Assembly (NCBI RefSeq): GCF_030684315.1
Contig: NC_081404.1
Span: 13,769,140 to 13,833,139, forward strand
DNA from: Stegostoma tigrinum
Lineage: Eukaryota
DNA length: 64,000 nucleotides
Direction of reading: 5' to 3'
Shown: piece after piece, positions 1 through 35,000 of the stretch
How the letters are laid out: every line of letters starts with the position of its first letter
How positions within the stretch are numbered: position 1 is the first letter of the stretch
Notes under the pieces: generated by a model
The model's input: only the letters and a program-made list of their open reading frames with translations
The model's database searches: none
What the model was told of the DNA's origin: nothing
Program-made: the position numbers and the translations under genes

Positions 1-3000
1 GGGGTGTTCGGGGACCCAGGAGCTCCCAAAGTGTCATCCTGAGACCGACACAGTCCGTTTCAAGCGCCCGAATCTCCCGAGGCTCGGTGTTGGGCTCCAG
101 CAGATATGGTGGCGGCGGTGGATCGAGCTTCAGCCGAATAAGTGTCGGTGCGGCTGGTTTAGGCTCAATGGGCTACCGGGGATATGGGGGAGGTATGTCT
201 CAAGGTCTGATCCAGAGAACCGCTGCCCTGGACCTGAGCACCCCTTTGCCTCAAATCGATACCACCCAGCGGGCTATCCGAGTGGAGGAGAGCAAGCAGC
301 TTCAGGGACTCAATAACCAGTTCGCGGACTTCGTTGGCAAGGTAATGTTCAGTGCTGCCCAGGCGGGTGGGTTTGTCAAATGCGTCCTCCGTGTCGTTTT
401 CTCTCGTGCCTTGTGGTGTCCGTCGCAACGTCTAACTATCTGTCTCTCCATCTCACCCCGCCAGGTTCGGTATTTGGAAAGGATCAATACTGAGCTGAAT
501 ATCAAACTGAAACTTCTGCAGGATCAAGGCGAATACAAATCCAACATCGAGAGCATGTTCCAGGTCTACATTGACAATCTGAAGAAACAACTGGAGGCAC
601 TTGGCCAGGAGAAGCTGAGGTTCGAGGCAGACCTGGTCCAAATGCAAGCTCTGGTCGAGGACTATAAGGGCAAGTAAGTGAGCTGCAGCTGAGTTGAGTC
701 ACGGGTTGCTTCGGAGGCGGGTTCGTGTCCGAACCAAACAGAAATACCAGGGACAGAATGAGTTCGCTTTGCCAAACCGGTAGAATGACAGCTGACGGAA
801 TTGTCCGCAGCATTGCCATGTAGACCGAACCGAACTGCACAGGGCTGTGCCGCTTCTCGTCTACGCGCTCGTTTGATTGAAGTGGGAGCACGGCTGATGC
901 TTCCGACAACATCGTCTGACAGTGTGTGTCTTGTGTCGGGACGGAAAGGTAACGACGAGCGGAGACAGAGACAAAACAGGGACGGTGATAGGGATCAGGC
1001 TGAAAGACTGAGCATCGGTAAAACAATCTCTTTCGTTCCAGGTACGAAGATGAAATCAACAAGCGGACGGAAATGGAAAATGAGTTTGTCCTGGTCAAGA
1101 AGGTGACTTTTATAACGATGCGCGGTACAGATCTCCGTTTGCGGCGACTTTTGCTCACTTTCATCAATGCATTCCCTCCCTCTGCTCTTTAGGATGTTGA
1201 TGACTCGTACATGAGCAAAGTGGAGCTGGAAGCTAAACTGGAAGGTCTGACAGATGAAATCGATTTCCTGCGGTCTATCTATGAAGAGGTAAACACGTGG
1301 CAATGGTCGGGCTGTTATCGTTTTCTGATCTGCTTTCCATTCGAGTCTCATGCAATGTAGCCCGAATGGTTTTCAATCACCTTGCAATCTTCATCCGCCT
1401 CCCCGCCCCCGCCCACATGTAGGAAATCCGGGAGCTGCAAGCCCAGATACAGAACACATGTGTCAATGTGCAATTGGAGGGCGGTCCGAAATTCGATGTC
1501 GAGGAGCTCCTCGCCAATGCCAGGAGGCAGTACGAAGCCTGCGCCCAGCAGAGCCGTGAGGAAGCGGAAACTTGGAAACAAACCAAGGTGAAGATTACGT
1601 GTCGCTGTCGCGTTCTTATCCAGCGGGCTGCAAAGTGAACTGTGGGACTAACGTGTTCCCAATGTCTGTTTGCAGATGCAGGAACTGGCCATGGCGTCTG
1701 GACAATGTGGCGATGATCTCAATATGCTGAAGTCAGAGATTAAACAGTCGACAGATCAAATCCGGAAACTGAAAGCATCCATCGATGCCCTGAAAAAGGA
1801 GGTAGGCAAAGGTGTGAAAGCGAACAGGGGGTGGGAAACGGTTGTAAATATCTGTACGTCTCTTTTACTCTCTCTGTCTTACCTCTCTGTCCGACATTAT
1901 TATCGGGAAGGCAATAAGGGGATAGGATCAGCTCAGCTGGGTTCTTTTCTGAACGCGTGGGGGGTCTGACTGCTGTCCTTTCCGATTGGAATCAGTGGCT
2001 GGCCAGTCACGCCGCCCTCCCCAAATCATTGCGCGGGGCGGGAGCGTTTTGCCTCGGTGTCGTTCTGAACACTGAGCTGACCCCAGTAAATACTGAAGAA
2101 ACTGGCCGAATGAATATTTATGTTCCTCAGCGTCTGAAACTGGAAGATGCAATCCGAGAAGCAGAGGAACGCGGCGAGAATTCTCTGAAAGACTCTCGGA
2201 TGAGGATTAGCGAACTGGAAGAGGCCATCTTGAGAGCCGGGCAAGAGCTTTCCAAACAAGCCAGGGAGTACGAACAGCTGGTGGGCATCAAGCTTGCACT
2301 GGACATTGAAATTGGGACCTACAAGAAAATGCTGGAGGGAGAGGAGGCAAGGTAAGATCAGGGCCAGTCGCTAATCGCAGCCATCACATTGAGTCCCGTG
2401 CTGGCAAATTGCAGTCCGTCCTTGCAGTTGACTGGTAGCTCTGGTCTCTGAGAATGGAATGGACTGCAGGCACTGGGAGTGACAATCTCTTCATTATCGA
2501 CATGTCCCGGGTAAAGGTCAGCTGTCCCGTTCCTCACGCTCCCATGGCCTGCTGGCCCCTGCTGCCTGTGACAGCAGCACCTAAAGACTGGGCACTTTGC
2601 CTGAGGCGAAGGAAGCTGACAGTGCCCTTTCAGAAGTGCATCCCAGCAGATGTCAGAGTCTCTGGGTGAGGGAGGAACTTGGGAAAACGGAGTGAAAGGG
2701 TGACTGTGATTTCCTGCAATTTCCTGCTCCGATCTGAGTGTGTTTCATTTCTCAACAGGATGGCAAGTGGGGTTAAAACCCTCAACATCCAGCAAGTCCA
2801 GAGCCAAGGTAAGAGAATTTGAGGTCCAAGTGAAGTGTGATGATTCTTTCTGGTCAGGTTCTGCTCAGCTTCATTCCAATCAGCCATCATCATTTCCCAC
2901 CTTCAACATCAGATGCTTGTATCATTTGGCCTTGTAAAATGATCGGTAATCACCAGCCCTTGCCAGCCTACTTCACATCCCTGATTGACATCACCCAACC

Positions 3001-3468
3001 AGCTTTCAGTTCATGAGGCTCCAATTCTCGGAATTCCTTCTGTCAGCATTTCCTTCATTCTCCTTCCCAGTCGCCTCCTTCAAGGGCTAGATTTTCCGCA
3101 TGCTTTTTCTCATCGTCCTGATGGATTTTAGGGTGTCAAATTGTTTCTTGGAGAAAGCGGCTGCAAAACATCTTGGGCTGTCGTACTTTGCGAAAGATAC
3201 AACACAAATTGAGTTACTTTATCATTTTGCAATTATACTTTCAATTGTAGCACCAAGATTACAAGAAAATTTTTTTTTTCTCTCTCTCTCTCTCTCTGCC
3301 CCTTTGACAGGTGGTTTGCAGCAAGGCTTGGGTTGGGGAGCTGGATCATCTTCCTATGAGACCTCACTCAGTTCAAGTGGCTCTTACGCGAGCAACAGAG
3401 CGACGGTGGGTGGACGAACCACGTATGAGGTGTCGAGCACAGGACTCAGTCAACAAGGGATCATTTGA
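1..3468 (+). CDS. Type II keratin, array copy 1 (5'-truncated by the window edge). Exons <1-341, 465-673, 1042-1102, 1193-1288, 1423-1587, 1676-1801, 2131-2351, 2759-2808, 3311-3468
   Basis: Gly/Ser-rich head; helix-initiation-like [16 protein letters not shown]; helix-termination [20 protein letters not shown]. All introns are GT-AG. Internal exon sizes 209/61/96/165/126/221 nt and their phases match the canonical type II keratin gene layout. Stop TGA ends at 3468; AATAAA at 3654-3659. Confidence 0.95.
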
Positions 3469-4520
3469 AACCATCAGTGCCTCCCAGCCGTTCATTGTCA
3501 GAGGTTATACTTTCCCTCAGTACTGTTTTTAGAGCGGTGGTTGACATCTTTATATTCACTTCATGTCTGCTACTCGGAATGACTGCATTAACCTGTTCAC
3601 GTTTCATACTTAAATGACATGAAGTCTACAGCGACATCTTCATCAGTTGACAAAATAAAGTAAACTTTGTGAAAGTTTGGGTTTGTGGGAAATGCAGTCA
3701 GGACGTTCACACTGTATTTGTTGGTATCTTTAAAATGGGAATTAAAGCAAAGCTTTCGCTGTTGAACTCTGTTTCACTTTGATGTGTAATTTTGTTCGTT
3801 GATTTACCTTATGGCATTGCTGTCCGGCTGAATAAACGTGTAAACTGCACAACTCGATTGCTTTTTGAACAGCACAATGTTAAATGAATGAAAAGGACAA
3901 TGCTCATCCATTGTTGTGTAATTCAAGAAGTGCCCACTCCAATATCGTTACATTTCCACAAGTATGATGACACGTGGAAAGACGTCTTTGTAGTTAGCAT
4001 GTCGGCACAAATACCCCAACACTGAAAATAAGCTGTCAGCCGTGAATGAAACTATTCAGTCCAACATCAGTGAAACCACTGTTGTGAATCTGACCAGATT
4101 CCCTCAAAATATTTTACCAAGTTATCTAGACCTTCACTCGTTCTGATCAGAAATGTAAATATAATGTGTGTCCCAAATGAACTACGACTCATCAAACCAC
4201 ATGATGTTAAGCTCTACTTAAAATACAACCAAGGAAGGAAGCATTTGGAATAACAACTGTATTGGAAATCTTCATAGAAGAATAAATACAGTAATTATGA
4301 CTTACTTCCTGTGCCAATACAGAAGCATCCCATAAGCAACATCCATTGGGTAAAGGGAAAATTCAGGCACAGATTCTCACACACATTTCTCCAGTCTAGG
4401 AGGGAAATATCACCCGGAGAAAATACAAAGAAAGTAGCGACCCGGAGGCATTCACTCAAGCTCCCAACTCTGTTGAGACTCCAACAGCTTCTGATGCTGC
4501 ATGAAAAAGTCCCGAAATCT

Positions 4521-6696
4521 ATAGACAATAGACAATAGCTACTGGAATCGGCCATTCGGCCCTTCGAGCCAGCACCCCCATTCGTTATGATCATGGCTGA
4601 TCATCCACAGTCAGTATCCTGTTCCTGCCTTCTCCCCATAACCCTGGATTCCACTGTCTTTAAGAACTAATATCTATCTCTTTCTTCAAAGCATCCAGAG
4701 AGTTGGCCTCCACTGCCTTCTTGGGCAGAGCATTCCATATATCCACCACTCTCTGGCTAAAGAAGTTTCTCCTCAACTCTGTTCTAAATGGCCTAGCCCT
4801 TATTTTTAAACTGTGTCCTCTGGTTCTGGACTCACCCGTCAGCGGAAACATGCTTCCTGCCTCCAAAGTCTCCAATCCCTGAATAAACTTATACGCCTCA
4901 ATCAGATGCCCTCTCATCATTCTCAGCTCAAGTGTATACAAGCACAGTCGCTCCAATCTTTCAACATCCGATAGTCCCGCCATTCTGGGAATTGACCTCG
5001 TGAGCCTACACTGCACTCCCTCAATAGCAACAATGTCCTTCCTCAAATTTGGAGACCAAAACTGCACACAAAACTCCAGGTGCACTCTCACCAGGGCCCT
5101 GTACAGCTGCAGAAGGACCTCTTTGCTCCGATACTCAATTCCTCTTGTTATGAAGGCCAGCATGTAATTAGCTTTCTTCACTGCCTGCTGTACCTGCATG
5201 CTTGCTTTCATTGGCTAATTGACAAGAACACCTAGGTCTCGTTGTACTTCCCCTTTACGGAAATTGACTCCATGGAGGTCGTAATCTGCCTTCCTGTTCT
5301 TGCCACCAAAGTGTATAACTGCACATTTATCCACATTAAACTGCATCTGCCATGCATCCGTCCACTCAACCAGCTTGTCCAAATCACCCTGTATTCTCAA
5401 AACATCCTCCTCACATTTCACACTGCTACCCAACTTTGTGTCATCTGCAAATTTGCTAATATTACTTTAAATGCCTTCATCTATATCATTAATATATATC
5501 GTAAACAGCTGCGGTCCCAACACCGAATCTTGTGGTACCTCACTGGTCACTGCCTGTCATTCCGAAAGGGACCTGTTTATCACTACTCTTTGCTTCCTGT
5601 CAGCCAGCCAATTTTCAGTCCAACTCAGTATTTTGCCCCCAATACCATGTGCCCTAATTTTGTTCACCAATCTCCGATGTGGGACTTTATCAAAGGCTTT
5701 CTGAAAGTACATCCACTGTTTCTCCCTTAACCATCTTCAGAGATACATTCTCCAAAAAATGCAGAAGATTAGTCAAGCACGATTTCCCCTTCGTAAATCC
5801 ATGCTGACTCTGACCTATTCTGTTCCTGCTATCCAAATGAATTGTAATTTCATCTTTTATAATTGACTCCAGCATCTTTCCCACCACTGACGTCAGGCTA
5901 ACCGGTCTATCATTTCCTCTTTTCCCTCTCCCTCCTTTCTTGAAAAGTGCGACAACATTTGCCAGCCTCCAATTCACAGGAACTGATCCTGAATCTATCG
6001 ACCCTTGGAACATAATTACCAACGAGTCCACAATTTCTGGAGCCACCTCCTGAAGTACCGTGGGATGCACACCATCAGGTCCCGGGGACTTATCGGCCTT
6101 CAGACCGAACAGTCTATCCAACACCTTTTCCTGCCTAAGAGAAATACCCTTCAGTTCGTCCATTACCCTAGGTCCTTCAGCCACTATTGCATCTGGGAGA
6201 TTTCTTGTGTCTTCCCTAGTGAAGACAGATCTAAAGTACCTATTCAATTCTTCCTCCATTTCCTTGTTCCCCGTGTTCAATTCACCCGTTTCTGACTTCA
6301 AGGGCCCAATTTTAGTCTGAACCATTTTTTTTCTTTTCACATCGCTAAAAAAGCTTTTACTATCCTCCTTTATATTTTTGGCCAGTTTTCTTTCATAGCT
6401 CATTTTTTCACTGTTTATTGCCTTTTTACTTATCGGCTGTTGCTCTTTAAAAGCTTCCCAGTCCTCCCGCTTCCCACTCATCTTAGCTATGTTATACTTC
6501 TCTCTTATCTTTATGCAGTCCTTAACTTGACTCGTCAGCCATGAGCTGATCCTGCACCTTCTGCATTATATCCAGAAATACCTGCCACTGTTGTTCCACT
6601 GCCATCCGTGCGAGGGGATTGTACTATTGAACTTTGGCCAGCTCCTCCCATATAGCTGCATAGTTCCCTTCATTCAACTCAATGCTGACACATCCG
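4521..6696 (-). mobile_element. 5'-truncated, frameshifted CR1 LINE (ORF2 RT and C-terminal region), unit 1
   Basis: ORF fragments KSPGPDGVHP, RPVSLTSVVGKMLE, QHGFTKGKSCLTNLL, WQMQFNVDKC, RTRGHSLK and FFSQRVVDIWNALP; 3' tail repeat atagacaatagacaatag. Confidence 0.92.
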
Positions 6697-8976
6697 GAAC
6701 GGACCCCACCTCTTCAGGCTTTATTTTTTTCAAAATCCAAGACTTTATCACCTGTTTACTAAAAAGGGTCTTGATGAGCCAGCTCCAAACCTCTGCCTTA
6801 CAATGTCTCCGAGAGCACACAGGACAAAATAACCTCTTCAAATGACAGCACACCATTCAGTACACCACCGCCGAAACCGCTCAGTTCACACTCACGGAAA
6901 CTAATGAGTGCACCATCCTTGAAAGCACCCCGGCACCATCACTGAAACTGCGCAATACCCCAGTATTGATACATCCTGGCTGTCAATTAGCTGAGTCGGC
7001 TGGGCAGTTGTTTTGCGATGCAGATTGATGGCAGCAGCACGCGTCGAGCCCGTGCAGTGCCTGCGACCACCTTGCCGATCCTGCCTTCTCAAGCTTCCGT
7101 CTTGCCTGAGGCATGGTGACCCGCTGGTTAAGCTGACAACCAGTTTTCCCTCACTGTATTGCAGGCACTTTCCGCCCGAACTGTGTGAGCCGGCACTGCA
7201 CGCACACCTAGTTTGAAGGCAAGACAGCAGAGTAACATTTCTGTCTTTTGCAATGATGTGTTCAATGATTGCAATTCTCTGGTTTTGCGAGACTGTGTCG
7301 AGGCACAGAAGCAAACATGTTGGTGCTGATAACACACATCCATATCCCGACATGATGTTGCATGGTGTGCATTGAGGAAGTGCTGCACCATGAGCAGACA
7401 AACGGAAGTCGCTGCTGCATGCAATATTCACAGATCTGCTGCACAGACATTAGTTTTGCGTCACAAGGATTTTTAGGGCTCCCGTTCCGTCTTTCGTGAC
7501 ATGGTCAAGGTGCTTGCGCTAAGTCGTTGGTTTGCGCTCAGTGGACAGATGGCCACCGGGTCAAAGCAGGATGAGTTTGCAGCTGCATGACACCTTCACT
7601 TTCTGGCTGTGTGTATAATGCTGTTCCCTTTTGAACAGTCTCACGTTGCCGCGATACGCAGCACCCTCCCTGACATGACCCAGCACCAACGGCAGCTGCT
7701 TTGGGCCTGGCCTCAGACATTTCCATTCCCATTGAGCACTTGTGCTTTTCAGCAAAATGGAAGCTACAAATGGCAGCTCTTTCAGACGTGCGTTCTGTGA
7801 GTCTAACTGAGTCTGCACCTGCCCACTTATCCCCCGAGCTGCAAGGATATCTGGTCAATAGGTCAGCATTTCCGGGGAACCGACACTTTCCCATTCACAT
7901 CCAGCCTTCCGCGGATTATCGTCTCCCCACTGATATATTCAGCTGTCCCCCAGGGCCTTTTCACTTTTCTCATCACCATTATGTTCGTAGCCCTTCTCCC
8001 GCAGCACTGGCAACCGAATACCCGCCACCTAACCTTGACTTTCTGTGGATGGACACCTCACATTGACCGTGGTGCACCACTTCAGCTGCTTCGCTGTGCA
8101 GCCCTGATCAATGAGTGACCAGAACCCTGACTGATACTTCTGCAGCTCTGCTACTCTGTTCCTGTGTCTCGCTGGACTGATTGCAATGGATCCACGCGGC
8201 TGACCATAGCCAACTCTCCAGGCTGCACTGCTATGGGCCACCGAACCGTCAGCACTCTAAGCGCCTCACACCTTGCCCAAGCCCCTGGACTGATATCATA
8301 GACAGCCCAGAACTTTACAAATTCCAAAGGGGTTATTAATGTCGCCAGATTGCACACATTCCAATTATACCGTTTTGATACTGCAACGCATTCTTTGCCT
8401 TGCATCACAGCGGCATCCACTAGCTCCCTCAGGCTTCATTCTGCCTTATTTATTTACTTTTATTGTAAATAATCAACACTGCTGTTCCCGATAAGCTCAT
8501 TATAACACTGCAGTGAAGTTTTCTGATATTCACGAAGCCTTACAATCCCTGAAACATCTGTTCAATTTAAACAGTGGTGAACAAAATACTCAACGGCCCC
8601 ATTTGACTGGAATGTCACCATTTATTTAACCGTGTGTTTGGGGGTTTGGTGGTTGTACAATGTGGGTGGGTGTAATGGTGCACAGCGCTCAATTCCCATG
8701 GGCTCTCTGCCCGCTCTCACGCAATCTTCCATTGCTAATTTTCATGAGACTGCCCAAGTCAGAAAAGCAGCTCGTCGCTCTCACCAAACTCCGTCATTCA
8801 CCAAACTCCAAGGTCCAGATCGTGTTGCAAGTTGCACTCAGTGACCAGCTGCCTTCCAATCTCATTGATTTCCAGAAACTGCGACTAAGATCATTCGTGG
8901 GTGGGAGCCTGAGACTTGCTTGCTGGCCTGGCCATGTCCAAGATTCAGACGCGACCAGAAAAGCTGCAAACTGATC

Positions 8977-9500
8977 ATAGAACATAAAACATAGAACATT
9001 ACAGCACAGTACAGGCCCTTCGGACCTCGATGTTGTGCAGACCTGTCATACCGATCTTCAGCCCATCTAACCGACACTATTCCATGTACGTCCATATGCT
9101 TGTCCAATGACGACTTAAATGTACCTAAAGTTGGCGAATCTACTGCCGTTGCAGGCAAAGCGTTCCTTTCCCTAACTACTCTCTGAGTAAACAATCTACC
9201 TCTGACATCTGTCCCATATCTTTCACCCCTCAATTTCAAGCTCTGACCCCTCGTGCTCGCCGTCACCATCCTAGGAAAAAGGCTCTCCCTATCCACCCTA
9301 TCTAACTCTCTGATTAGTTTATATGTTTGAATTAAGTCACCTCTCAACCGTCTTCTCTCTGATGAAAACAGCCTCAAGTCCCTCAGCCTTACCTCGTAAG
9401 ACCTTCCCTCCATACCAGGCAACATCCTAGTAAATCTCCTCTGCACCCTTTCCAGAGCTTCCACCTCCTTCTTACAATGCGGTGACCAGAACTGTTCACA
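8977..9500 (-). mobile_element. CR1 LINE 3' fragment of a second subfamily, unit 1
   Basis: [28 protein letters not shown]...RRRLRGDLI...FTQRVV; tail repeat catagaacataaaacatagaac. Confidence 0.9.
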
Positions 9501-10379
9501 AACTGCACTGTAAAGTTCGTTGTGTATATTCAGACGCTGTGACACGACTGTGCAGCAAGTAGGACTGCAACTCAGGCCTCCTTACTCAGAGCTAGGGACA
9601 TTCCCACCACATCACCAAAGCGCTGAACTTTCCATTTGATGCTGCTTGTGGAAGAGAAGGCGCTGGAGATCCTGTGAATTCACCCGTTTCACCAGTTGGT
9701 GGAGCCTCTGGAACACAGTCCTCGGGAACTGCGCGACTGTGCAAAGGGGATCGTTCCAAGCGCCTCTCACACACTTCTTGCTCGCTGCATCCTGTCACCC
9801 GCACCCCCCAACAAGCACCAAACCAACTCAGCGCTCGAACGCTGTCAGCAAGGCACTTAACAACTTCGAATCATACGTTCAACATCAGAAACACGATCCA
9901 AGAGGCAGATTTTTATGTTCAAAATGTATTCGAAGAAAGGCACGCACTATTTGGGCGGAGACAGTGGCGAATGTGCAAAGAGGGCAGAGGTGGAGGAATG
10001 CCCAGACTGTCTGAGGGTTGGAGGGAGCCCAAACAGGGAGAAAGAAAAGTGGGTTCGGGACCAGAAGGAGTGTCCGAACATGGAGGGGTGCGCGGGTCGA
10101 CCGGGATTTGCGAAATCCCGGCTATGAAGTGAATGGGGAAAGCTGGATGTGGGTAATGGGTTGGCAAAGGGGTGACCATTCAGGAGAAGATGCGGTTGAA
10201 GCAGGGACTGCCCAGTTGAGAAAAGGCCTGAAACAGCTGACGATGTAAAATGGGGTGGTGGTTAGGAGGAGTGGGCGGTGTTGGAGAACCTTGGACTGAT
10301 TGCAAGTGGCGAGCTAAGCAAAGAATCAGGTGTTGGCGCTCGGCAAAGGTGCAGGTCCCACCTCTCCTCCCCGGCCCAG

Positions 10380-10603
10380 GGGCACAGGGCGGCGGCTGGT
10401 TCCTCCCCTCTCCGGCTTGCTCCATTCTGGGCGGTTCCTTGTCAACAGACAGCCCCTTGGCCAACCCAGACTCACACGGACATAAAAGCAGCCGAGTCCG
10501 TCCTCAGCTCCACCGAGCCGTTCACGTTCTGACTGTGCTCTCTCTCTCTCACTCTCTCTCTCTGTCTCTGCGAGTCTGTGTCTACGTCGTGAAAAACCTC
10601 GAA
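10380..10603 (+). promoter_or_regulatory. Proximal promoter and 5' UTR of copy 2: GC boxes, CATAAAA TATA variant (10481-10487), (CT)n tract. Equivalent CATAAAA at 21208-21214 and 31923-31929
   Basis: CATAAAA lies ~120 nt upstream of the ATG and is preceded by GGGCGG boxes; same position in all three complete copies. Confidence 0.6.
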
Positions 10604-13600: not shown

Positions 13601-14192
13601 TTCCAATCAGCCATCATCATTTCCCACCTTCAACATCAGATGCTTGTATCATTTGGCCTTGTAAAATGATCGGTAATCACCAGCCCTTGCCAGCCTACTT
13701 CACATCCCTGATTGACATCACCCAACCAGCTTTCAGTTCATGAGGCTCCAATTCTCGGAATTCCTTCTGTCAGCATTTCCTTCATTCTCCTTCCCAGTCG
13801 CCTCCTTCAAGGGCTAGATTTTCCGCATGCTTTTTCTCATCGTCCTGATGGATTTTAGGGTGTCAAATTGTTTCTTGGAGAAAGCGGCTGCAAAACATCT
13901 TGGGCTGTCGTACTTTGCGAAAGATACAACACAAATTGAGTTACTTTATCATTTTGCAATTATACTTTCAATTGTAGCACCAAGATTACAAGAAAATTTT
14001 TTTTTCTCTCTCTCTCGCTCTGCCCCTTTGACAGGTGGTTTGCAACAAGGCTTGGGTTGGGGAGCTGGATCATCTTCCTATGAGACCTCACTCAGTTCAA
14101 GTGGCTCTTACGCGAGCAACAGAGCGACGGTGGGTGGACGAACCACGTATGAGGTGTCGAGCACAGGACTCAGTCAACAAGGGATCATTTGA
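10604..14192 (+). CDS. Type II keratin, array copy 2, complete, ~516 aa. Exons 10604-11068, 11192-11400, 11769-11829, 11920-12015, 12150-12314, 12403-12528, 12858-13078, 13486-13535, 14035-14192
   Basis: ATG in gaaATGa ([12 protein letters not shown]...). Spliced CDS is 1551 nt and open throughout. Same splice sites as copy 1 at offset 10727; AATAAA at 14378-14383. Confidence 0.95.
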
Positions 14193-19703: not shown

Positions 19704-20227
19704 ATAGAACATAAAACATAGAACATTACAGCACAGTACAGGCCCTTCGGACCTCGATGTTGTGCAGACCTGTCATACCGATCTTCAGCCCATCTAACCG
19801 ACACTATTCCATGTACGTCCATATGCTTGTCCAATGACGACTTAAATGTACCTAAAGTTGGCGAATCTACTGCCGTTGCAGGCAAAGCGTTCCTTTCCCT
19901 AACTACTCTCTGAGTAAACAATCTACCTCTGACATCTGTCCCATATCTTTCACCCCTCAATTTCAAGCTCTGACCCCTCGTGCTCGCCGTCACCATCCTA
20001 GGAAAAAGGCTCTCCCTATCCACCCTATCTAACTCTCTGATTAGTTGATATGTTTGAATTAAGTCACCTCTCAACCGTCTTCTCTCTGATGAAAACAGCC
20101 TCAAGTCCCTCAGCCTTACCTCGTAAGACCTTCCCTCCATACCAGGCAACATCCTAGTAAATCTCGTCTGCACCCTTTCCAGAGCTTCCACCTCCTTCTT
20201 ACAATGCGGTGACCAGAACTGTTCACA
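19704..20227 (-). mobile_element. CR1 3' fragment, unit 2
   Basis: Duplicate of 8977-9500. Confidence 0.9.
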
Positions 20228-21322
20228 AACTGCACTGTAAAGTTCGTTGTGTATATTCAGACGCTGTGACACGACTGTGCAGCAAGTAGGACTGCAACTC
20301 AGGCCTCCTTACTCAGAGCTAGGGACATTCCCACCACATCACCAAAGCGCTGAACTTTCCATTTGATGCTGCTTGTGGAAGAGAAGGCGCTGGAGATCCT
20401 GTGAATTCACCCGTTTCACCAGTTGGTGGAGCCTCTGGAACACAGTCCTCGGGAACTGCGCGACTGTGCAAAGGGGATCGTTCCAAGCGCCTCTCACACA
20501 CTTCTTGCTCGCTGCATCCTGTCACCCGCACCCCCCAACAAGCACCAAACCAACTCAGCGCTCGAACGCTGTCAGCAAGGCACTTAACAACTTCGAATCA
20601 TACGTTCAACATCAGAAACACGATCCAAGAGGCAGATTTTTATGTTCAAAATGTATTCGAAGAAAGGCACGCACTATTTGGGAGGAGACAATGGCGAATG
20701 TGCAAAGAGGGCAGAGGTGGAGGAATGCCCAGAATGTCTGAGGGTTGAAGGGAGCCCAAACAGGGAGAAAGAAAAGTGGGTTCGGGACCAGAAGGAGTGT
20801 CCGAACATGGAGGGGTGCGCGGGTCGACCGGGATTTGCGAAATCCCGGCTATGAAGTGAATGGGGAAAGCTGGATGTGGGTAATGGGTTGGCAAAGGGGT
20901 GACCATTCAGGAGAAGATGCGGTTGAAGCAGGGACTGCCCAGTTGAGAAAAGGCCTGAAACAGCTGACGATGTAAAATGGGGTGGTGGTTAGGAGGAGTG
21001 GGCGGTGTTGGAGAACCTTGGACTGATTGCAAGTGGCGAGCTAAGCAAAGAATCAGGTGTTGGCGCTCGGCAAAGGTGCAGGTCCCACCTCTCCTCCCCG
21101 GCCCAGGGGCACAGGGCGGCGGCTGGTTCCTCCCCTCTCCGGCTTGCTCCATTCTGGGCGGTTCCTTGTCAACAGACAGCCCCTTGGCCAACCCAGACTC
21201 ACACGGACATAAAAGCAGCCGAGTCCGTCCTCAGCTCCACCGAGCCGTTCACTTTCTGTCTGTGCTCTCTCTCTCTCTCTCTCTCTCTGCGAGTCTGTGT
21301 CTACGTCGTGAAAAACCTCGAA

Positions 21323-24300: not shown

Positions 24301-24911
24301 CAGGTTCTGCTCAGCTTCATTCCAATCAGCCATCATCATTTCCCACCTTCAACATCAGATGCTTGTATCATTTGGCCTTGTAAAATGATCGGTAATCACC
24401 AGCCCTTGCCAGCCTACTTCACATCCCTGATTGACATCACCCAACCAGCTTTCAGTTCATGAGGCTCCAATTCTAGGAATTCCTTCTGTCAGCATTTCCT
24501 TCATTCTCCTTCCCAGTCGCCTCCTTCAAGGGCTAGATTTTCCGCATGCTTTTTCTCATCGTCCTGATGGATTTTAGGGTGTCAAATTGTTTCTTGGAGA
24601 AAGCGGCTGCAAAACATCTTGGGCTGTCGTACTTTGCGAAAGATACAACACAAATTGAGTTACTTTATCATTTTGCAATTATACTTTCAATTGTAGCAAC
24701 AAGATTACAAGAAATTTTTTTTTTCTCTCTCTCTCTCTCTGCCCCTTTGACAGGTGGTTTGCAGCAAGGCTTGGGTTGGGGATCTGGATCATCTTCCTAT
24801 GAGACCTCACTCAGTTCAAGTGGCTCTTACGCGAGCAACAGAGCGACGGTGGGTGGACGAACCACGTATGAGGTGTCGAGCACAGGACTCAGTCAACAAG
24901 GGATCATTTGA
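21323..24911 (+). CDS. Type II keratin, array copy 3, complete, ~516 aa. Exons 21323-21787, 21911-22119, 22488-22548, 22639-22734, 22869-23033, 23122-23247, 23577-23797, 24205-24254, 24754-24911
   Basis: Intact frame and splice sites. Differs from copy 2 by head V>A and R>K (SVLGSSRY > SALGSSKY) and tail A>S. AATAAA at 25097-25102. Confidence 0.95.
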
Positions 24912-25963
24912 AACCATCAGTGCCTCCCAGCCGTTCATTGTCAGAGGTTATACTTTCCCTCAGTACTGTTTTTAGAGCGGTGGTTGACATCTTTATATTC
25001 ACTTCATGTCTGCTACTCGGAATGACTGCATTAACCTGTTCACGTTTCATACTTAAATGACATGAAGTCTACAGCGACATCTTCATCAGTTGACAAAATA
25101 AAGTAAACTTTGTGAAAGTTTGGGTTTGTGGGAAATGCAGTCAGGACGTTCACACTGTATTTGTTGGTATCTTTAAAATGGGAATTAAAGCAAAGCTTTC
25201 GCTGTTGAACTCTGTTTCACTTTGATGTGTAATTTTGTTCGTTGATTTACCTTATGGCATTGCTGTCCGGCTGAATAAACGTGTAAACTGCACAACTCGA
25301 TTGCTTTTTGAACAGCACAATGTTAAATGAATGAAAAGGACAATGCTCATCCATTGTTGTGTAATTCAAGAAGTGCCCACTCCAATATCGTTACATTTCC
25401 ACAAGTATGATGACACGTAGAAAGACGTCTTTGTAGTTAGCATGTCGGCACAAATACCCCAACACTGAAAATAAGCTGTCAGCCGTGAATGAAACTATTC
25501 AGTCCAACATCAGTGAAACCACTGTTGTGAATCTGACCAGATTCCCTCAAAATATTTTACCAAGTTATCTAGACCTTCACTCGTTCTGATCAGAAATGTA
25601 AATATAATGTGTGTCCCAAATGAACTACGACTCATCAAACCACATGATGTTAAGCTCTACTTAAAATACAACCAAGGAAGGAAGCATTTGGAATAACAAC
25701 TGTATTGGAAATCTTCATAGAAGAATAAATACAGTAATTATGACTTACTTCCTGTGCCAATACAGAAGCATCCCATAAGCAACATCCATTGGGTAAAGGG
25801 AAAATTCAGGCACAGATTCTCACACACATTTCTCCAGTCTAGGAGGGAAATATCACCCGGAGAAAATACAAAGAAAGTAGCGACCCGGAGGCATTCACTC
25901 AAGCTCCCAACTCTGTTGAGACTCCAACAGCTTCTGATGCTGCATGAAAAAGTCCCGAAATCT

Positions 25964-28140
25964 ATAGACAATAGACAATAGCTACTGGAATCGGCCATTC
26001 GGCCCTTCGAGCCAGCACCCCCATTCGTTATGATCATGGCTGATCATCCACAGTCAGTATCCTGTTCCTGCCTTCTCCCCATAACCCTGGATTCCACTGT
26101 CTTTAAGAACTAATATCTATCTCTTTCTTGAAAGCATCCAGAGAGTTGGCCTCCACTGCCTTCTTGGGCAGAGCATTCCATATATCCACCACTCTCTGGC
26201 TAAAGAAGTTTCTCCTCAACTCTGTTCTAAATGGCCTAGCCCTTATTTTTAAACTGTGTCCTCTGGTTCTGGACTCACCCGTCAGCGGAAACATGCTTCC
26301 TGCCTCCAAAGTCTCCAATCCCTGAATAAACTTATACGCCTCAATCAGATGCCCTCTCATCATTCTCAGCTCAAGTGTATACAAGCACAGTCGCTCCAAT
26401 CTTTCAACATCCGATAGTCCCGCCATTCTGGGAATTGACCTCGTGAGCCTACACTGCACTCCCTCAATAGCAACAATGTCCTTCCTCAAATTTGGAGACC
26501 AAAACTGCACACAAAACTCCAGGTGCACTCTCACCAGGGCCCTGTACAGCTGCAGAAGGACCTCTTTGCTCCGATACTCAATTCCTCTTGTTATGAAGGC
26601 CAGCATGTAATTAGCTTTCTTCACTGCCTGCTGTACCTGCATGCTTGCTTTCATTGGCTAATTGACAAGAACACCTAGGTCTCGTTGTACTTCCCCTTTA
26701 CGGAAATTGACTCCATGGAGGTCGTAATCTGCCTTCCTGTTCTTGCCACCAAAGTGTATAACTGCACATTTATCCACATTAAACTGCATCTGCCATGCAT
26801 CCGTCCACTCAACCAGCTTGTCCAAATCACCCTGTATTCTCAAAACATCCTCCTCACATTTCACACTGCTACCCAACTTTGTGTCATCTGCAAATTTGCT
26901 AATATTACTTTAAATGCCTTCATCTATATCATTAATATATATCGTAAACAGCTGCGGTCCCAACACCGAATCTTGTGGTACCTCACTGGTCACTGCCTGT
27001 CATTCCGAAAGGGACCTGTTTATCACTACTCTTTGCTTCCTGTCAGCCAGCCAATTTTCAGTCCAACTCAGTATTTTGCCCCCAATACCATGTGCCCTAA
27101 TTTTGTTCACCAATCTCCGATGTGGGACTTTATCAAAGGCTTTCTGAAAGTACATCCACTGTTTCTCCCTTAACCCTCTTCAGAGATACATTCTCCAAAA
27201 AATCCAGAAGATTAGTCAAGCACGATTTCCCCTTCGTAAATCCATGCTGACTCTGACCTATTCTGTTCCTGCTATCCAAATGAATTGTAATTTCATCTTT
27301 TATAATTGACTCCAGCATCTTTCCCACCACTGACGTCAGGCTAACCGGTCTATCATTTCCTCTTTTCCCTCTCCCTCCTTTCTTGAAAAGTGCGACAACA
27401 TTTGCCAGCCTCCAATTCACAGGAACTGATCCTGAATCTATAGACCCTTGGAACATAATTACCAACGAGTCCACAATTTCTGGAGCCACCTCCTGAAGTA
27501 CCGTGGGATGCACACCATCAGGTCCCGGGAACTTATCGGCCTTCAGACCGAACAGTCTATCCAACACCTTTTCCTGCCTCTGAGAAATACCCTTCAGTTC
27601 GTCCATTACCCTAGGTCCTTCAGCCACTATTGCATCTGGGAGATTTCTTGTGTCTTCCCTAGTGAAGACAGATCTAAAGTACCTATTCAATTCTTCCTCC
27701 ATTTCCTTGTTCCCCGTGTTCAATTCACCCGTTTCTGACTTCAAGGGCCCAATTTTAGTCTGAACCATTTTTTTTTCTTTTCACATCGCTAAAAAAGCTT
27801 TTACTATCCTCCTTTATATTTTTGGCCAGTTTTCTTTCATAGCTCATTTTTTCACTGTTTATTGCCTTTTTACTTATCGGCTGTTGCTCTTTAAAAGCTT
27901 CCCAGTCCTCCCGCTTCCCACTCCTCTTTGCTATGTTATACTTCTCTCTTATCTTTATGCAGTCCTTAACTTGACTCGTCAGCCATGAGCTGATCCTGCA
28001 CCTTCTGCATTATATCCAGAAATACCTGCCACTGTTGTTCCACTGCCATCCGTGCGAGGGGATTGTACTATTGAACTTTGGCCAGCTCCTCCCATATAGC
28101 TGCATAGTTCCCTTCATTCAACTCAATGCTGACACATCCG
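25964..28140 (-). mobile_element. Same CR1 LINE fragment, unit 3
   Basis: Duplicate of 4521-6696 at offset ~21443. Confidence 0.92.
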
Positions 28141-30418
28141 GAACGGACCCCACCTCTTCAGGCTTTATTTTTTTCAAAATCCAAGACTTTATCACCTGTT
28201 TACTAAAAAGGGTCTTGATGAGGCAGCTCCAAACCTCTGCCTTACAATGTCTCCGAGAGCACACAGGACAAAATAACCTCTTCAAATGACAGCACACCAT
28301 TCAGTACACCACCGCCGAAACCGCTCAGTTCACACTCACGGAAACTAATGAGTGCACCATCCTTGAAAGCACCCCGGCACCATCACTGAAACTGCGCAAT
28401 ACCCCAGTATTGATACATCCTGGCTGTCAATTAGCTGAGTCGGCTGGGCAGTTGTTTTGCGATGCAGATTGATGGCAGCAGCACGCGTCGAGCCCGTGCA
28501 GTGCCTGCGACCACCTTGCCGATCCTGCCTTCTCAAGCTTCCGTCTTGCCTGAGGCATGGTGACCCGCTGGTTAAGCTGACAACCAGTTTTCCCTCACTG
28601 TATTGCAGGCACTTTCCGCCCGAACTGTGTGAGCCGGCACTGCACGCACACCTAGTTTGAAGGCAAGACAGCAGAGTAACATTTCTGTCTTTTGCAATGA
28701 TGTGTTCAATGATTGCAATTCTCTGGTTTTGCGAGACTGTGTCGAGGCACAGAAGCAAACATGTTGGTGCTGATAACACACATCCATATCCCGACATGAT
28801 GTTGCATGGTGTGCATTGAGGAAGTGCTGCACCATGAGCAGACAAACGGAAGTCGCTGCTGCATGCAATATTCACAGATCTGCTGCACAGACATTAGTTT
28901 TGCGTCACAAGGATTTTTAGGGCTCCCGTTCCGTCTTTCGTGACATGGTCAAGGTGCTTCCGCTAAGTCGTTGGTTTGCGCTCAGTGGACAGATGGCCAC
29001 CGGGTCAAAGCAGGATGAGTTTGCAGCTGCATGACACCTTCACTTTCTGGCTGTGTGTATAATGCTGTTCCCTTTTGAACAGTCTCACGTTGCCGCGATA
29101 CGCAGCACCCTCCCTGACATGACCCAGCACCAACGGCAACTGCTTTGGGCCTGGCCTCAGACATTTCCATTCCCATTGAGCACTTGTGCTTTTCAGCAAA
29201 ATGGAAGCTACAAATGGCACCTCTTTCAGACGTGCGTTCTGTGAGTCTAACTGAGTCTGCACCTGCCCACTTATCCCCCGAGCTGCAAGGATATCTGGTC
29301 AATAGGCCAGCATTTCCGGGGAACCGACACTTTCCCATTCACATCCAGCCTTCCACGGATTATCGTCTCCCCACTGATATATTCAGCTGTCCCCCAGGGC
29401 CTTTTCACTTTTCTCATCACCATTATGTTCGTAGCCCTTCTCCCGCAGCACTGGCAACCGAATACCCGCCACCTAACCTTGACTTTCTGTGGATGGACAC
29501 CTCACATTGACCGTGGTGCACCACTTCAGCTGCTTCGCTGTGCAGCCCTGATCAATGAGTGACCAGAACCCTGACTGATACTTCTGCAGCTCTGCTACTC
29601 TGTTTCTGTGTCTCGCTGGACTGATTGCAATGGATCCACGCGGCTGACCATAGCCAACTCTCCAGGCTGCACTGCTATGGGCCACCGAACCGTCAGCACT
29701 CTAAGCGCCTCACACCTTGCCCAAGCCCCTGGACTGATATCATAGACAGCCCAGAACTTTACAAATCCCAAAGGCGTTATTCATGTCGCCAGATTGCACA
29801 CCTTCCAATTATACCGTTTTGGTACTGCAACGCATTCTTTGCCTTGCATCACAGCGGCATCCACTAGCTCCCTCAGGCTTCATTCTGCCTTATTTATTTA
29901 CTTTTATTGTAAATAATCAACACTGCTGTTCCCGATAAGCTCATTATAACACTAGTGAACTTTTCTAATATTCACGAAGCCTTACAATCCCTGAAACATC
30001 TGTTCAATTTAAACAGTGGTGAACAAAATACTCAACGTCCCCATTTGACTGGAATGTCACCATTTATTTAACCGTGTGTTTGGGGGTTTGGTGGTTGTAC
30101 AATGTGGGTGGGTGTAATGGTGCACAGCGCTCAATTCCCATGGGCTCTCTGCCCGCTCTCACGCAATCTTCCATTGCTAATTTTCATGAGACTGCCCAAG
30201 TCAGAAAAGCAGCTCGTCGCTCTCTCCAAACTCCGTCATTCACCAAACTCCAAGGTCCAGATCGTGTTGCAAGTTGCACTCAGTGACCAGCTGCCTTCCA
30301 ATCTCATTGATTTCCAGAAACTGCGACGAAGATCATTCGTGGGTGGGAGCCTGAGACTTGCTTGCTGGCCTGGCCATGTCCAAGATTCAGACGCGACCAG
30401 AAAAGCTGCAAACTGAAC

Positions 30419-30942
30419 ATAGAACATAAAACATAGAACATTACAGCGCAGTACAGGCCCTTCGGCCCTCGATGTTGTGCAGACCTGTCATACCGATCTT
30501 AAGCCCATCTAACCGACACTATTCCATGTACGTCCATATGCTTGTCCAATGACGACTTAAATGTACCTAAAGTTGGCGTATCTACTGCCGTTGCAGGCAA
30601 AGCGTTCCTTTCCCTTACTACTCTCTGAGTAAACAATCTACCTCTGACATCTGTCCCATATCTTTCACCCCTCAATTTAAAGCTATGCCCCCTCGTGCTC
30701 GCCGTCACCATCCTAGGAAAAAGACTCTCCCTATCCACCCTATCTAACTCTCTGATTAGTTTATATGTTTGAATTAAGTCACCTCTCAACCTTCTTCTCT
30801 CTAACGAAAACAGCCTCAAGTCCCTCAGCCTTACCTCGTAAGACCTTCCCTCCATACCAGGCAACATCCTAGTAAATCTCCTCTGCACCCTTTCCAGAGC
30901 TTCCACCTCCTTCTTACAATGCTGTGACCAGAACTGTACACA
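30419..30942 (-). mobile_element. CR1 3' fragment, unit 3
   Basis: Duplicate of 8977-9500, with more substitutions than the other two copies. Confidence 0.9.
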
Positions 30943-32035
30943 AACTGCACTGTAAAGTTCGTTGTGTATATTCAGACGCTGTGACACGACTGTGCAGCAA
31001 GTAGGACTGCAACTCAGGCCTCCTTACTCAGAGCTAGGGACATTCCCACCACATCACCAAAGCGCTGAACTTTCCATTTGATGCTGCTTGTGGAAGAGAA
31101 GGCGCTGGAGATCCTGTGAATTCACCCGTTTCACCAGTTGGTGGAGCCTCTGGAAAACAGTCCTCGGGAACTGCGCGACTGTGCAAAGGGGATCGTTCCA
31201 AGCGCCTCTCACACACTTCTTGCTCCCTGCATCCTGTCACCCGCACCCCCCAACAAGCACCAAACCAACTCAGCGCTCGAACGCTGTCAGCAAGGCACTT
31301 AACAACTTCGAATCATACGTTCAACATCAGAAACACGATCCAAGAGGCAGATTTTTATGTTCAAAATGTATTCGAAGAAAGGCACGCACTATTTGGGCGG
31401 AGACAGTGGCGAATGTGCAAAGAGGGCAGAGGTGGAGGAATGTCCAGAATGTCTGAGGGTTGGAGGGAGCCCAAACAGGGAGAAAGAAAAGTGGGTTCGG
31501 GACCAGAAGGAGTGTCCGAACATGGAGGGGTGCGCGGGTCGACCGGGATTTGCGAAATCCCGGCTATGAAGTGAATGGGGAAAGCTGGATGTGGGTAATG
31601 GGTTGGCAAAGGGGTGACCATTCAGGAGAAGATGCGGTTGAAGCAGGGACTGCCCAGTTGAGAAAAGGCCTGAAACAGCTGACGATGTAAAATGGGGTGG
31701 TGGTTAGGAGGAGTGGGCGGTGTTGGAGAACCTTGGACTGATTGCAAGTGGCGAGCTAAGCAAAGAATCAGGTGTTGGCGCTCGGCAAAGGTGCAGGTCC
31801 CACCTCTCCTCCCCGGCCCAGGGGCACAGGGCGGCGGCTGGTTCCTCCCCTCTCCGGCTTGCTCCATTCTGGGCGGTTCCTTGTCAACAGACAGCCCCTT
31901 GGCCAACCCAGACTCACACGGACATAAAAGCAGCCGAGTCCGTCCTCAGCTCCACCGAGCCGTTCACGTTCTGACTGTGCTCTCTCTCTCTCTCTCTCTC
32001 TGCGAGTCTGTGTCTACGTCGTGAAAAACCTCGAA

Positions 32036-35000
32036 ATGACATCGAAAATCATCAGCAGCACCACCAGCAGCACCTCCCGCAGCAGCAGGAGCCGAGGGGG
32101 AGGCCCAATTGGCGGAGCAGCCGGGTTTTCCACTGGACTGATCCTGTCGGGAAGCGGAGGGGGTGTTCGGGGACCCAGGAGCTCCCAAAGTGTCATCCTG
32201 AGACCGACACAGTCCGTTTCAAGCGCCCGAATCTCCCGAGGCTCGGTGTTGGGCTCCAGCAGATATGGTGGCGGCGGTGGATCGAGCTTCAGCCGAATAA
32301 GTGTCGGTGCGGCTGGTTTAGGCTCAATGGGCTACCGGGGATATGGGGGAGGTATGTCTCAAGGGCTGATCCAGAGAACCGCTGCCCTGGACCTGAGCAC
32401 CCCTTTGCCTCAAATCGATACCACCCAGCGGGCTATCCGAGTGGAGGAGAGCAAGCAGCTTCAGGGACTCAATAACCAGTTCGCGGACTTCGTTGGCAAG
32501 GTAATGTTCAGTGCTGCCCAGGCGGGTGGGTTTGTCAAATGCGTCCTCCGTGTCGTTTTCTCTCGTGCCTTGTGGTGTCCGTCGCAAAGTCTAACTGTCT
32601 GTCTCTCCATCTCACCCCGCCAGGTTCGGTATTTGGAAAGGATCAATACTGAGCTGAATATCAAACTGAAACTTCTGCAGGATCAAGGCGAATACAAATC
32701 CAACATCGAGAGCATGTTCCAGGTCTACATTGACAATCTGAAGAAACAACTGGAGGCACTTGGCCAGGAGAAGCTGAGGTTCGAGGCAGACCTGGTCCAA
32801 ATGCAAGCTCTGGTCGAGGACTATAAGTGCAAGTAAGTGAGCTGCAGCTGAGTTTAGTCACGGGTTGCTTCGGAGGCGGGTTCGTGTCCGAACCAAACAG
32901 AAATACCAGGGACAGAATGAGTTCGCTTTGCCAAACCGGTAGAATGACAGCTGACGGAATTGTCCGCAGCATTGCCATGTAGACCGAACCGAACTGCACA
33001 GGGCTGTGCCGCTTCTCGTCTGCGCGCTCGTTTGATTGAAGTGGGAGCACGGCTGATGCTTCCGACAACATCGTCTGACAGTGTGTGTCTTGTGTCGGAA
33101 CCGAAAGGTAACGACTAGCGGAGACAGAGACAAAACAGGGACGGTGATAGGGATCAGGCTGAAAGACTGAGCATCGGTAAAACAATCTCTTTCGTTCCAG
33201 GTACGAAGATGAAATCAACAAGCGGACGGAAATGGAAAATGAGTTTGTCCTGGTCAAGAAGGTGACTTTTATAACGATGCGCGGTACAGATCTCCGTTTG
33301 CGGCGACTTTTGCTCACTTTCATCAATGCATTCCCTCCCTCTGCTCTTTAGGATGTTGATGACTCGTACATGAGCAAAGTGGAGCTGGAAGCTAAACTGG
33401 AAGGTCTGACAGATGAAATCGATTTCCTGCGGTCTATCTATGAAGAGGTAAACACGTGGCAATGGTCGGGCTGTTATCGTTTTCTGATCTGCTTTCCATT
33501 CGAGTCTCATGCAATGTAGCCCGAATGGTTTTTAATCACCTTGCAATCTTCATCCGCCTCCCCGCCCCCGCCCACATGTAGGAAATCCGGGAGCTGCAAG
33601 CCCAGATACAGAACACATGTGTCAATGTGCAATTGGAGGGCGGTCCGAAATTCGATGTCGAGGAGCTCCTCGCCAATGCCAGGAGGCAGTACGAAGCCTG
33701 CGCCCAGCAGAGCCGTGAGGAAGCGGAAACTTGGAAACAAACCAAGGTGAAGATTACGTGTCGCTGTCGCGTTCTTATCCAGCGGGCTGCAAAGTGAACT
33801 GTGGGACTAACGTGTTCCCAATGTCTGTTTGCAGATGCAGGAACTGGCCATGGCGTCTGGACAATGTGGCGATGATCTCAATATGCTGAAGTCAGAGATT
33901 AAACAGTCGACAGATCAAATCCGGAAACTGAAAGCATCCATCGATGCCCTGAAAAAGGAGGTAGGCAAAGGTGTGAAAGCGAACAGGGTATGGGAAACGG
34001 TTGTAAATATCTGTACGTCTCTTTTACTCTCTCTGTCTTACCTCTCTGTCCGACATTATTATCGGGAAGGCAATAAGGGGATAGGATCAGCTCGGCTGGG
34101 TTCTTTTCTGACAACGTGGGGGGTCTGACTGCTGTCCTTTCCGAATGGAATCTGTGGCTGGCCAGTCACGCCGCCCTCCGCAAATCATTGCGCGGGGCGG
34201 GAGCGTTTTGCCTCGGTGTCGTTCTGAACACTGAGCTGACCCCAGTAAATACTGAAGAAACTGGCCGAATGAATATTTATGTTCCTCAGCGTCTGAAACT
34301 GGAAGATGCAATCCGAGAAGCAGAGGAACGCGGCGAGAATTCTCTGAAAGACTCTCGGATGAGGATTAGCGAACTGGAAGAGGCCATCTTGAGAGCCGGG
34401 CAAGAGCTTTCCAAACAAGCCAGGGAGTACGAACAGCTGGTGGGCATCAAGCTTGCACTGGACATTGAAATTGGGACCTACAAGAAAATGCTGGAGGGAG
34501 AGGAGGCAAGGTAAGATCAGGGCCAGTCGCTAATCGCAGCCATCACATTGAGTCCCGTGCTGGCAAATTGCAGTCCGTCCTTGCAGTTGACTGGTAGCTC
34601 TGGTCTCTGAGAATGGAATGGACTGCAGGCACTGGGAGTGACAATCACTTCATTATCTACATGTCCCGGGTAAAGGTCAGCTGTCCCGTTCCTCACGCTC
34701 CCATGGCCTGCTGGCCCCTGCTGCCTGTGACAGCAGCACCTAAAGACTGGGCACTTTGCCTGAGGCGAAGGAAGCTGACAGTGCCCTTTCAGAAGTGCAT
34801 CCCAGCAGATGTCAGAGTCTCTGGGTGAGGGAGGAACTTGGGAAAACGGAGTGAAAGGGTGACTGTGATTTCCTGCAATTTCCTGCTCCGATCTGAGTGT
34901 GTTTCATTTCTCAACAGGATGGCAAGTGGGGTTAAAACCCTCAACATCCAGCAAGTACAGAGCCAAGGTAAGAGAATTTCTGTTTCCTCCTTTTGACAAA

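What the first reader, a model, noticed from the sequence alone, without database searches (positions are those of the whole stretch)
1..34979. Recent amplification of an intact type II keratin in ~10.7 kb near-identical tandem units
Seen: at least four copies, all with open frames and intact splice sites, each full unit carrying the same two CR1 insertions. The CR1s therefore predate the amplification. The array is cut by the left window edge, so copy number may be higher. Keratin clusters usually consist of diverged paralogues. An rDNA/histone-like homogeneous array suggests recent expansion or concerted evolution, possibly under dosage selection for a bulk structural or secreted filament protein (inference).
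Basis: partly seen in the sequence, partly recalled or inferred. Interest (0 to 1): 0.7.

Follow-up and report, generated by a model that had tools for sequence, protein, structure and literature searches.

The report
Ancient self-copying shark skin keratin array
Sharks and rays carry a run of near-identical skin keratin genes plus one partner gene that shares everything but its last exon; the copies have kept overwriting each other for hundreds of millions of years, so they look young but are old.

Summary
The tandem array is real: ~10.72 kb units, 0.4-0.7% apart, with four intact type II keratin genes. An independent DNA run and spliced contigs support it. Named homologues point to zebra shark, with at least six copies. 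The same two-tail set occurs in 16 of 20 cartilaginous fishes retrieved. In them, exons 1-8 are 94.7-100% identical within a species, while zebra and epaulette shark bodies are 69% identical; the odd tail is conserved across species. So this is an old locus under concerted evolution, not a recent amplification. The family includes the catshark epidermal type II keratin. Concerted evolution of keratin paralogues is known in mammals; this layout and depth were not found in print.

The parts
1..3468 (+). Gene A, array-tail type II keratin, 5' end cut by the window edge
   Evidence: open frame, GT-AG introns
10604..14192 (+). Gene B, 9 exons, 516 aa, array tail (= P0005)
21323..24911 (+). Gene C, 9 exons, 516 aa, array tail (= P0007, named Stegostoma tigrinum K8-like)
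32036..35536 (+). Gene D, terminal gene, 520 aa: exons 1-8 as in the array, private exon 9 (= P0001)
35367..35536 (+). Private exon 9 of gene D with the K8-type tail motif; single copy in the window
   Evidence: covered by spliced-run contigs
34980..35366 (+). Private part of intron 8 of gene D; identity with the array ends at 34,979, 12 nt after the exon 8 donor; GC and CpG drop here
24754..24911 (+). Array-type exon 9 (also 3311-3468 and 14035-14192)
2821..13547 (+). Repeat unit 1: rest of intron 8, array exon 9, spacer with two CR1s, promoter, exons 1-8
13548..24266 (+). Repeat unit 2
24267..34979 (+). Repeat unit 3 (edge unit, most divergent, ends in the body of gene D)
25960..28200 (-). 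CR1-like LINE fragment 1 (ends approximate; present in all three full units)
30416..30940 (-). CR1-like LINE fragment 2, 5'-truncated, 7-bp target duplication at 30409-30415 and 30941-30947 (right-hand site also at 9499 and 20226)
49458..62107 (-). Gene E: separate, intact, convergent type II keratin (450 aa, ~45% identical), long AT-rich introns, not homogenised

Best explanation
An old pair of tandem epidermal type II keratin genes: one with an array-type tail and, downstream, one (D) with the ancestral K8-type tail. Their promoters and exons 1-8 are kept near-identical by gene conversion and unequal crossing over. A misaligned crossover between two bodies adds or removes the block [array tail + spacer + body], so array-tail genes vary in number while the D tail, anchored in unique flank, stays single. 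The diverged intron 8 stops conversion tracts, so the two tails evolve separately. Shown: the layout in this window, species-wise clustering of bodies, cross-species conservation of the D tail, transcription of both tails. Inferred: the crossover/conversion mechanism, selection for both tails, epidermal role in this species, X-linkage.
For: Boundary 12 nt into intron 8, with no other similarity between the two introns. Of 20 species retrieved, 16 have both tails; each of the 15 elasmobranchs among them shows one distinct D-type protein beside 1-6 distinct array-type proteins (the Rhinoraja D call was made by eye). Within-species body identity D vs array is 98.8-100% in 13 elasmobranchs, 94.7% in Amblyraja and 97.4-99.8% in Callorhinchus (Rhinoraja 97.6-99.4% among its three). 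Zebra vs epaulette shark: bodies 69%, D tails 68%, array tails 57%; the two tails within a species 33-36%. The body tree groups by species or sister species; forcing D bodies into one clade costs 4,692 log units, p-AU 1e-83 (fast search, 2,000 replicates, 36 rows). A leave-one-species-out D-tail profile scores D above the array tail in 16 of 16 species. Edge unit most divergent; 7 sites are shared by neighbours (cut unit + unit 1 vs units 2 + 3). G224C is shared by D and an array-tail copy outside the window. GC 0.52 and CpG o/e 0.72 over exons 1-8 fall to 0.36 and 0.27 past the boundary. Private changes run 44 S>W vs 26 W>S, as expected with GC-biased conversion. Contigs of runs X1, X5 and X6 all break at the D-private site 34,957, and X5 and X6 cover both tail types (that the 39 unlaid letters are exon 8 is inferred from lengths).
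Against: Gene order and separate-gene status were seen only in this window; for other species only proteins were seen. Array-type tails do not form one clade in the tail tree: carpet-shark tails are a long branch, and skate, catshark and chimaera array tails fall among D tails, with weak support. Heptranchias separates weakly (15.1 vs 11.9 bits), and the chimaera's two tails resemble each other more than other species' tails. Four of 20 species showed one tail type only (whale shark, Mustelus, S. stellaris, little skate). Substitutions among units are 33 transitions to 62 transversions, an odd spectrum that I cannot explain. Selection on either tail was not tested.
Confidence: 0.8

Rival explanations
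1. Repeated independent origins: the D gene is ancestral, and several lineages separately duplicated it and evolved a new tail on the extra copies. Homogenisation is then real within orders but the pair is not one 300-My-old locus.
For: Array tails are not monophyletic in the tail tree; chimaera and Heptranchias tails resemble their own D tails.
Against: Array tails of 10 sharks and rays from several orders group together (support 0.72), and horn shark and sevengill array tails match best (score 175). Even on this reading the pair predates the zebra/epaulette split.
Confidence: 0.1
2. Recent, zebra-shark-specific amplification of one gene, driven by dosage need.
For: Units are 0-0.8% apart and share both CR1s. 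Only one whale shark protein was retrieved. The latest expansion round is indeed young.
Against: Multi-copy clusters with the same two tails in bamboo, epaulette, white, basking, horn, saw and sevengill sharks and in rays. The whale shark X assembly of that version was fragmentary.
Confidence: 0.04
3. In most species the two tails are alternative last exons of one gene; only some species hold separate genes.
For: Accessions are often adjacent; Heterodontus bodies are 100% identical.
Against: Here they are separate genes, and no second tail exon lies in the spacer or after D. The family records listed carry no 'isoform' label. Bodies differ in all four species with one of each (94.7-99.8%).
Confidence: 0.04
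4. Assembly over-expansion of a one- or two-copy locus.
For: The cut unit and unit 1 are identical over 2,820 bp; transversion excess. Run X1 depth suggests somewhat fewer copies than six.
Against: In run X1, long contigs over the unit have depth 22-30 against 4.6-8.3 in unique flank; the tool warns that contig depth is no copy number, so this is a hint only. X1 carries 3 alleles found in single window units outside the CR1s. Six distinct annotated proteins. The same layout in 15 other species' records. The VGP zebra shark assembly is HiFi plus optical map (that this window comes from it is inferred).
Confidence: 0.02

Closest known systems
Scyliorhinus stellaris 'epidermal keratin type II' (CAA76715.1, P0020)
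   Same: Falls inside this family in the body tree; 66% identical over the searched region; its short tail resembles the start of the S. torazame D tail. The elephant shark member A0A4W3HRB3 (P0166) is listed among chain catshark skin mucus proteins (PMC10707392 Table 2).
   Different: One database record; no array or second tail is described in what I read. The original paper was not seen.
Mammalian keratin paralogues under concerted evolution (K6A/B/C; K81/83/86/87; K31/33A/33B/34)
   Same: Tandem keratin genes that cluster by species (PMC5540548 passages).
   Different: Confined to mammals. Here homogenisation covers whole 10.7 kb units, stops at intron 8, leaves one fixed partner with another tail, and spans sharks, rays and probably chimaeras.
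Vertebrate type II keratin cluster 2
   Same: Elephant shark has a cluster of several type II genes (bioRxiv 2020.05.06.063123); 9-exon layout with type II intron positions (layout recalled).
   Different: No elasmobranch was surveyed there, and 'gene conversion' and 'concerted' have 0 occurrences in its text.
Human OPN1LW/OPN1MW opsin array and alpha-globin pairs (recalled, no call)
   Same: One-plus-n tandem layout in which unequal crossing over changes the number of one type while conversion homogenises shared parts.
   Different: The private part here is the last exon, all copies share a promoter, and the layout is far older.
Keratin 8 (K8)
   Same: D tail carries the K8-type motif: 82 of 96 bony-vertebrate type II (nearly all K8-like) tails score at least 15 bits on the D-tail profile. 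Databases name the family 'K8-like'.
   Different: Only 55-59% identical to bony-vertebrate K8 over residues 95-330; own clade on a long branch; no Pfam Keratin_2_head hit; linked to epidermis, not simple epithelia.

Membership tests
Type II keratin | Intermediate filament rod domain | tested here: met
   Pfam Filament, residues 137-448, 297 bits, full profile
Type II keratin | Nearest relatives are type II keratins | tested here: met
   Named hits among the best 120 of 401 are type II keratins or unnamed IF-rod proteins
Type II keratin | Nine exons with conserved sizes (61, 96, 165, 126, 221 nt in the rod) | tested here: met
   the canonical sizes are recalled; gene E has the same sizes
Type II keratin | Forms heterodimers with a type I keratin | not tested
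   No type I gene among the ORFs noted in the window; partner not sought
K8 orthologue | Groups with bony-vertebrate K8 | tested here: inconclusive
   K8s served only as outgroup; no shark K8 in the tree. Rod identity 55-59%
K8 orthologue | Head-to-head with krt18 | tested here: not met
   Genes B, C and D have a keratin tail exon and spacer upstream; the left end of the array was not seen
K8 orthologue | Simple-epithelium expression | not testable with these tools
   Family member named epidermal; tissue of runs X5 and X6 not on record
Concertedly evolving multigene array | Paralogues closer within than between species | tested here: met
Concertedly evolving multigene array | Duplication older than the speciations | tested here: met
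   Tail types shared across species; firm within carpet sharks, mackerel sharks and rays, weaker at the deepest nodes
Concertedly evolving multigene array | Signs of exchange (shared variants, edge divergence, GC rise) | tested here: met
   no formal conversion-tract test was run
Concertedly evolving multigene array | Copy-number variation among individuals | tested here: inconclusive
   Only contig depths from one sample
X-linked locus | Lies on the X, outside the pseudoautosomal region | tested here: inconclusive
   Host contigs of 16.41 Mb (Pristis), 28.81 Mb (Carcharodon) and 73.08 Mb (Mobula hypostoma) match the X size range limits 16.4, 28.8 and 73.0 Mb (that passage does not name the species). 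12.2 and 19.6 Mb match '~12' and '~20 Mbp' for whale and zebra shark X. Shark X is homologous to part of human chr12. No male/female depth was seen; PAR status unknown

The most novel reading that the evidence does not exclude
A two-tail epidermal keratin system as old as cartilaginous fishes: one fixed gene supplies the ancestral K8-type tail, an expandable array supplies the same rod with another tail, and copy number sets the ratio of the two tails in the filament. Because the locus sits on an X without full dosage compensation, females would make more of it, which could contribute to the thicker female skin of many sharks (thicker skin is recalled, no call).
Probability: 0.12. Interest if true: 0.8.

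Novelty: new variant of a known kind. Interest (0 to 1): 0.55.

Why it matters
It would be one of the longest-running cases of concerted evolution of a protein-coding gene in vertebrates, with an exon-sharp boundary. It is a natural experiment on keratin tails: same promoter, head and rod, two tails, kept across sharks and rays. It also warns that species-wise clustering in keratin trees, often read as lineage-specific expansion, can hide an old duplication. If X-linked outside the PAR, it is a structural-protein array whose dose differs by sex in animals with incomplete dosage compensation.

Tried and rejected
No whole genome is held for this window, so the left end of the array and any type I partner could not be examined. 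A tail-only protein search found only P0001 (1 of 13 candidates), because D-type relatives are hidden inside 90% clusters; they appeared through cluster listings. The run search listed no holder on record as RNA; X5 and X6 are treated as RNA only because their contigs skip introns. Contig depths of the two tails in X5 and X6 were not used to rank expression, as the tool forbids it. Lower depth of run X16 in flank bins (1.2-1.7) than on unit contigs (4.5-7.8) may reflect partial cover and is not taken as a copy number. My first idea, that the array genes are chimaeras carrying a foreign tail, was dropped: the whale shark has the same head, rod and array tail. The gene E model had wrong exon ends and was fixed; its GC3 is not used. 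A treekit tree gave no answer and was replaced by FastTree and IQ-TREE. Rows dropped: five Callorhinchus records that were short or had an odd tail (P0161, P0164, P0165, P0167, P0168), the partial whale shark model P0004, and three unnamed Logan hits (P0015, P0027, P0030). No earlier scan findings were returned. 'keratin' had 0 hits in the main texts of six shark genome papers and in the supplements held for three of them. Table 2 and the supplements of bioRxiv 2025.02.26.637739 were not seen and would bear on X-linkage.
Full report
Observation. Self-comparison shows direct repeats from base 1 to 34,979 with periods of about 10.72 kb and 99.2-99.4% identity. Four keratin genes lie on the + strand: A (cut at the left edge, ends 3,468), B (10,604-14,192), C (21,323-24,911) and D (32,036-35,536). 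All have open frames and GT-AG introns. The rod matches Pfam Filament over its full length. Each of the three full units holds the same two CR1-like fragments; the second has a 7-bp target duplication. Among units there are 95 substituted columns and 5 indel events, most in short repeats.

Identity ends 12 nt after the exon 8 donor of gene D. A, B and C end in one exon 9; D ends in another at 35,367-35,536. The two introns 8 share only those 12 nt, and the two last exons with their 3' flanks give no real DNA alignment. The repeat unit is therefore [rest of intron 8 + array tail + spacer + promoter + exons 1-8], and D is a body from the array joined to a private tail. That tail has the K8-type motif: 82 of 96 bony-vertebrate type II (nearly all K8-like) tails score at least 15 bits on a profile of D tails. 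A related RDG/IKT stretch is conserved in desmin, and the chaperone-binding site mapped there lies next to it (PMC5465037, passages); carrying this over to keratin is my inference.

Source and copy number. The protein of gene C is identical to a record named Stegostoma tigrinum K8-like on a 19.6 Mb contig. The cluster holds six distinct proteins on that contig; two (G263S; G224C with the array tail) fit no gene in the window, and a third with a one-residue head deletion fits at most the cut gene A. So there are at least six genes.

Is it real? In DNA run X1, long contigs over spacer and tail have depth 22-23, over exons 1-8 30, and over unique flank 4.6-8.3. The tool warns that contig depth is no copy number, so I take this only as a hint of several copies with one more body than spacer. 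Of 20 X1 alleles that I compared, 12 match the majority against a unit 3 variant, 4 match a variant of a single other unit (one of them inside a CR1 and set aside), and 4 occur in none of the three window units. Intron-skipping contigs of X5 and X6 cover the shared exons and both tail types. Contigs of all three runs break at 34,957, a D-private site in exon 8. This fits D being a separate transcribed gene; the unlaid letters were not shown, so the exon 8 link is inferred from lengths.

Age. Cluster listings gave family members from 20 cartilaginous fishes. Sixteen have both tail types. Each of the 15 elasmobranchs among them shows one distinct D-type protein beside 1-6 array-type proteins; the chimaera has both types in records from mixed sources. 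Identical proteins collapse in this collection, so these are lower bounds. Bodies are near-identical within species and group by species or sister species in the tree. A tree with D bodies as one clade is rejected. The tails do the opposite: zebra and epaulette shark D tails are 68% identical and their array tails 57%, while the two tails within each species are 33-36% identical. A leave-one-out profile ranks D above the array tail in 16 of 16 species. Against the deepest dating: array tails are not one clade, Heptranchias separates weakly, and the chimaera's tails resemble each other. The pair is certainly older than the zebra/epaulette split, likely older than the shark-ray split (the shared X is dated to around 300 Mya in PMC12318234), and possibly older still.

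Mechanism. Shown: the layout, the boundary, the species-wise bodies, the conserved D tail. Inferred: conversion and unequal crossing over between bodies. Such crossovers can only add or remove the block with the array tail, which explains 'n plus one'. The edge unit is the most divergent, neighbours share variants, and one amino-acid variant is shared by D and a distant array copy. GC and CpG are high over the homogenised part and fall at the boundary; private changes lean towards A/T, 44 to 26. Gene E, inverted and 45% identical, has long AT-rich introns and is not homogenised. A relative in run X16 covers spacer, promoter and exons at about 88-93% identity. One of its contigs stops matching at the target site of the second CR1 and runs on for 733 letters not shown as laid there. 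This suggests the CR1 came later and spread through the units, but the joint itself was not displayed.

Function. The family contains the S. stellaris 'epidermal keratin type II', and an elephant shark member was the best match for a chain catshark skin mucus protein (PMC10707392, passages; the authors regard such cytoskeletal proteins as probably sloughed). Most likely this is an epidermal ('E'-type, PMC1896152 passages) filament protein made in two tail versions. Selection for both tails is inferred from their persistence; a dosage role is untested.

Chromosome. Contig sizes of orthologues match published X sizes, and the shark X corresponds to part of human chromosome 12, where the type II keratin cluster lies (recalled). 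Sharks show incomplete dosage compensation. X-linkage is probable but indirect, and a position in the PAR is not excluded.

Known versus new. Concerted evolution among mammalian keratin paralogues is in print (PMC5540548, passages). A survey of fish keratin clusters covers elephant shark but no elasmobranch and does not mention conversion (bioRxiv 2020.05.06.063123; parts 1-2 of 5 and passages). Seven searches (listings only, except the papers named here) found no description of this array or its two tails. The library lacks most subscription papers, including Schaffeld 1998 and Vandebergh and Bossuyt 2012, which I saw only as citations. Other papers read: bioRxiv 2025.02.26.637739 (passages, sections 10 and 18), PMC13100897 (passages), PMC11406177 and PMC10620051 (passages, supplement search), PMC12318234 (passages, section 6, supplement search), PMC11979771 (term search, no hits).

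Verdict. Real, old and homogenised, with a conserved exception at the last exon. New variant of a known kind; interest 0.55.

Noticed in passing
window 1-34979: Differences among units are 33 transitions to 62 transversions, with only 7 CpG transitions of 95; unusual for a vertebrate and unexplained.
   Followed up: partly
window 30417-30943: The second CR1 has 32 differences per kb among units against 4-10 per kb elsewhere, mostly private to unit 3; possibly conversion from other genomic CR1 copies.
   Followed up: partly
window 49458-62107 (-): Intact, diverged type II keratin gene E (450 aa) with a short, glycine-poor head, convergent with the array; 51-54% identical to the best bony-vertebrate K8-like hits, 45% to the array protein.
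   Followed up: partly
window 10241-10603: An upstream in-frame ATG could extend the head by about 115 aa, depending on the length of a CT microsatellite; open in gene B, shifted in C and D, and used in the annotated 630-aa P0009.
   Followed up: no
window 24382, 24581, 25400, 25742: Run X1 contigs carry alleles absent from all three window units, hinting at array-wide differences between haplotypes or at unseen copies.
   Followed up: partly
window 10604-13535 vs whale shark P0002: The body is 87% and the rod 92% identical at protein level between zebra and whale shark, while the array tail is 94%. Chromosome-median dS between them is only 0.06-0.11, so the homogenised part seems to evolve fast.
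   Followed up: no
window 44750-45709: Inverted pair of Penelope-like fragments with a weak GIY-YIG match and a 39-bp tandem repeat.
   Followed up: no
window 33259-33350 and 33833-34288: Contigs of other type II keratin transcripts, at far greater contig depth, match parts of the rod exons in runs X5 and X6; probably a paralogue such as K8 itself.
   Followed up: no
window 34094-34153: Cluster of six unit 3-private changes in intron 6 of gene D, possibly a remnant of less-converted sequence near the boundary.
   Followed up: no
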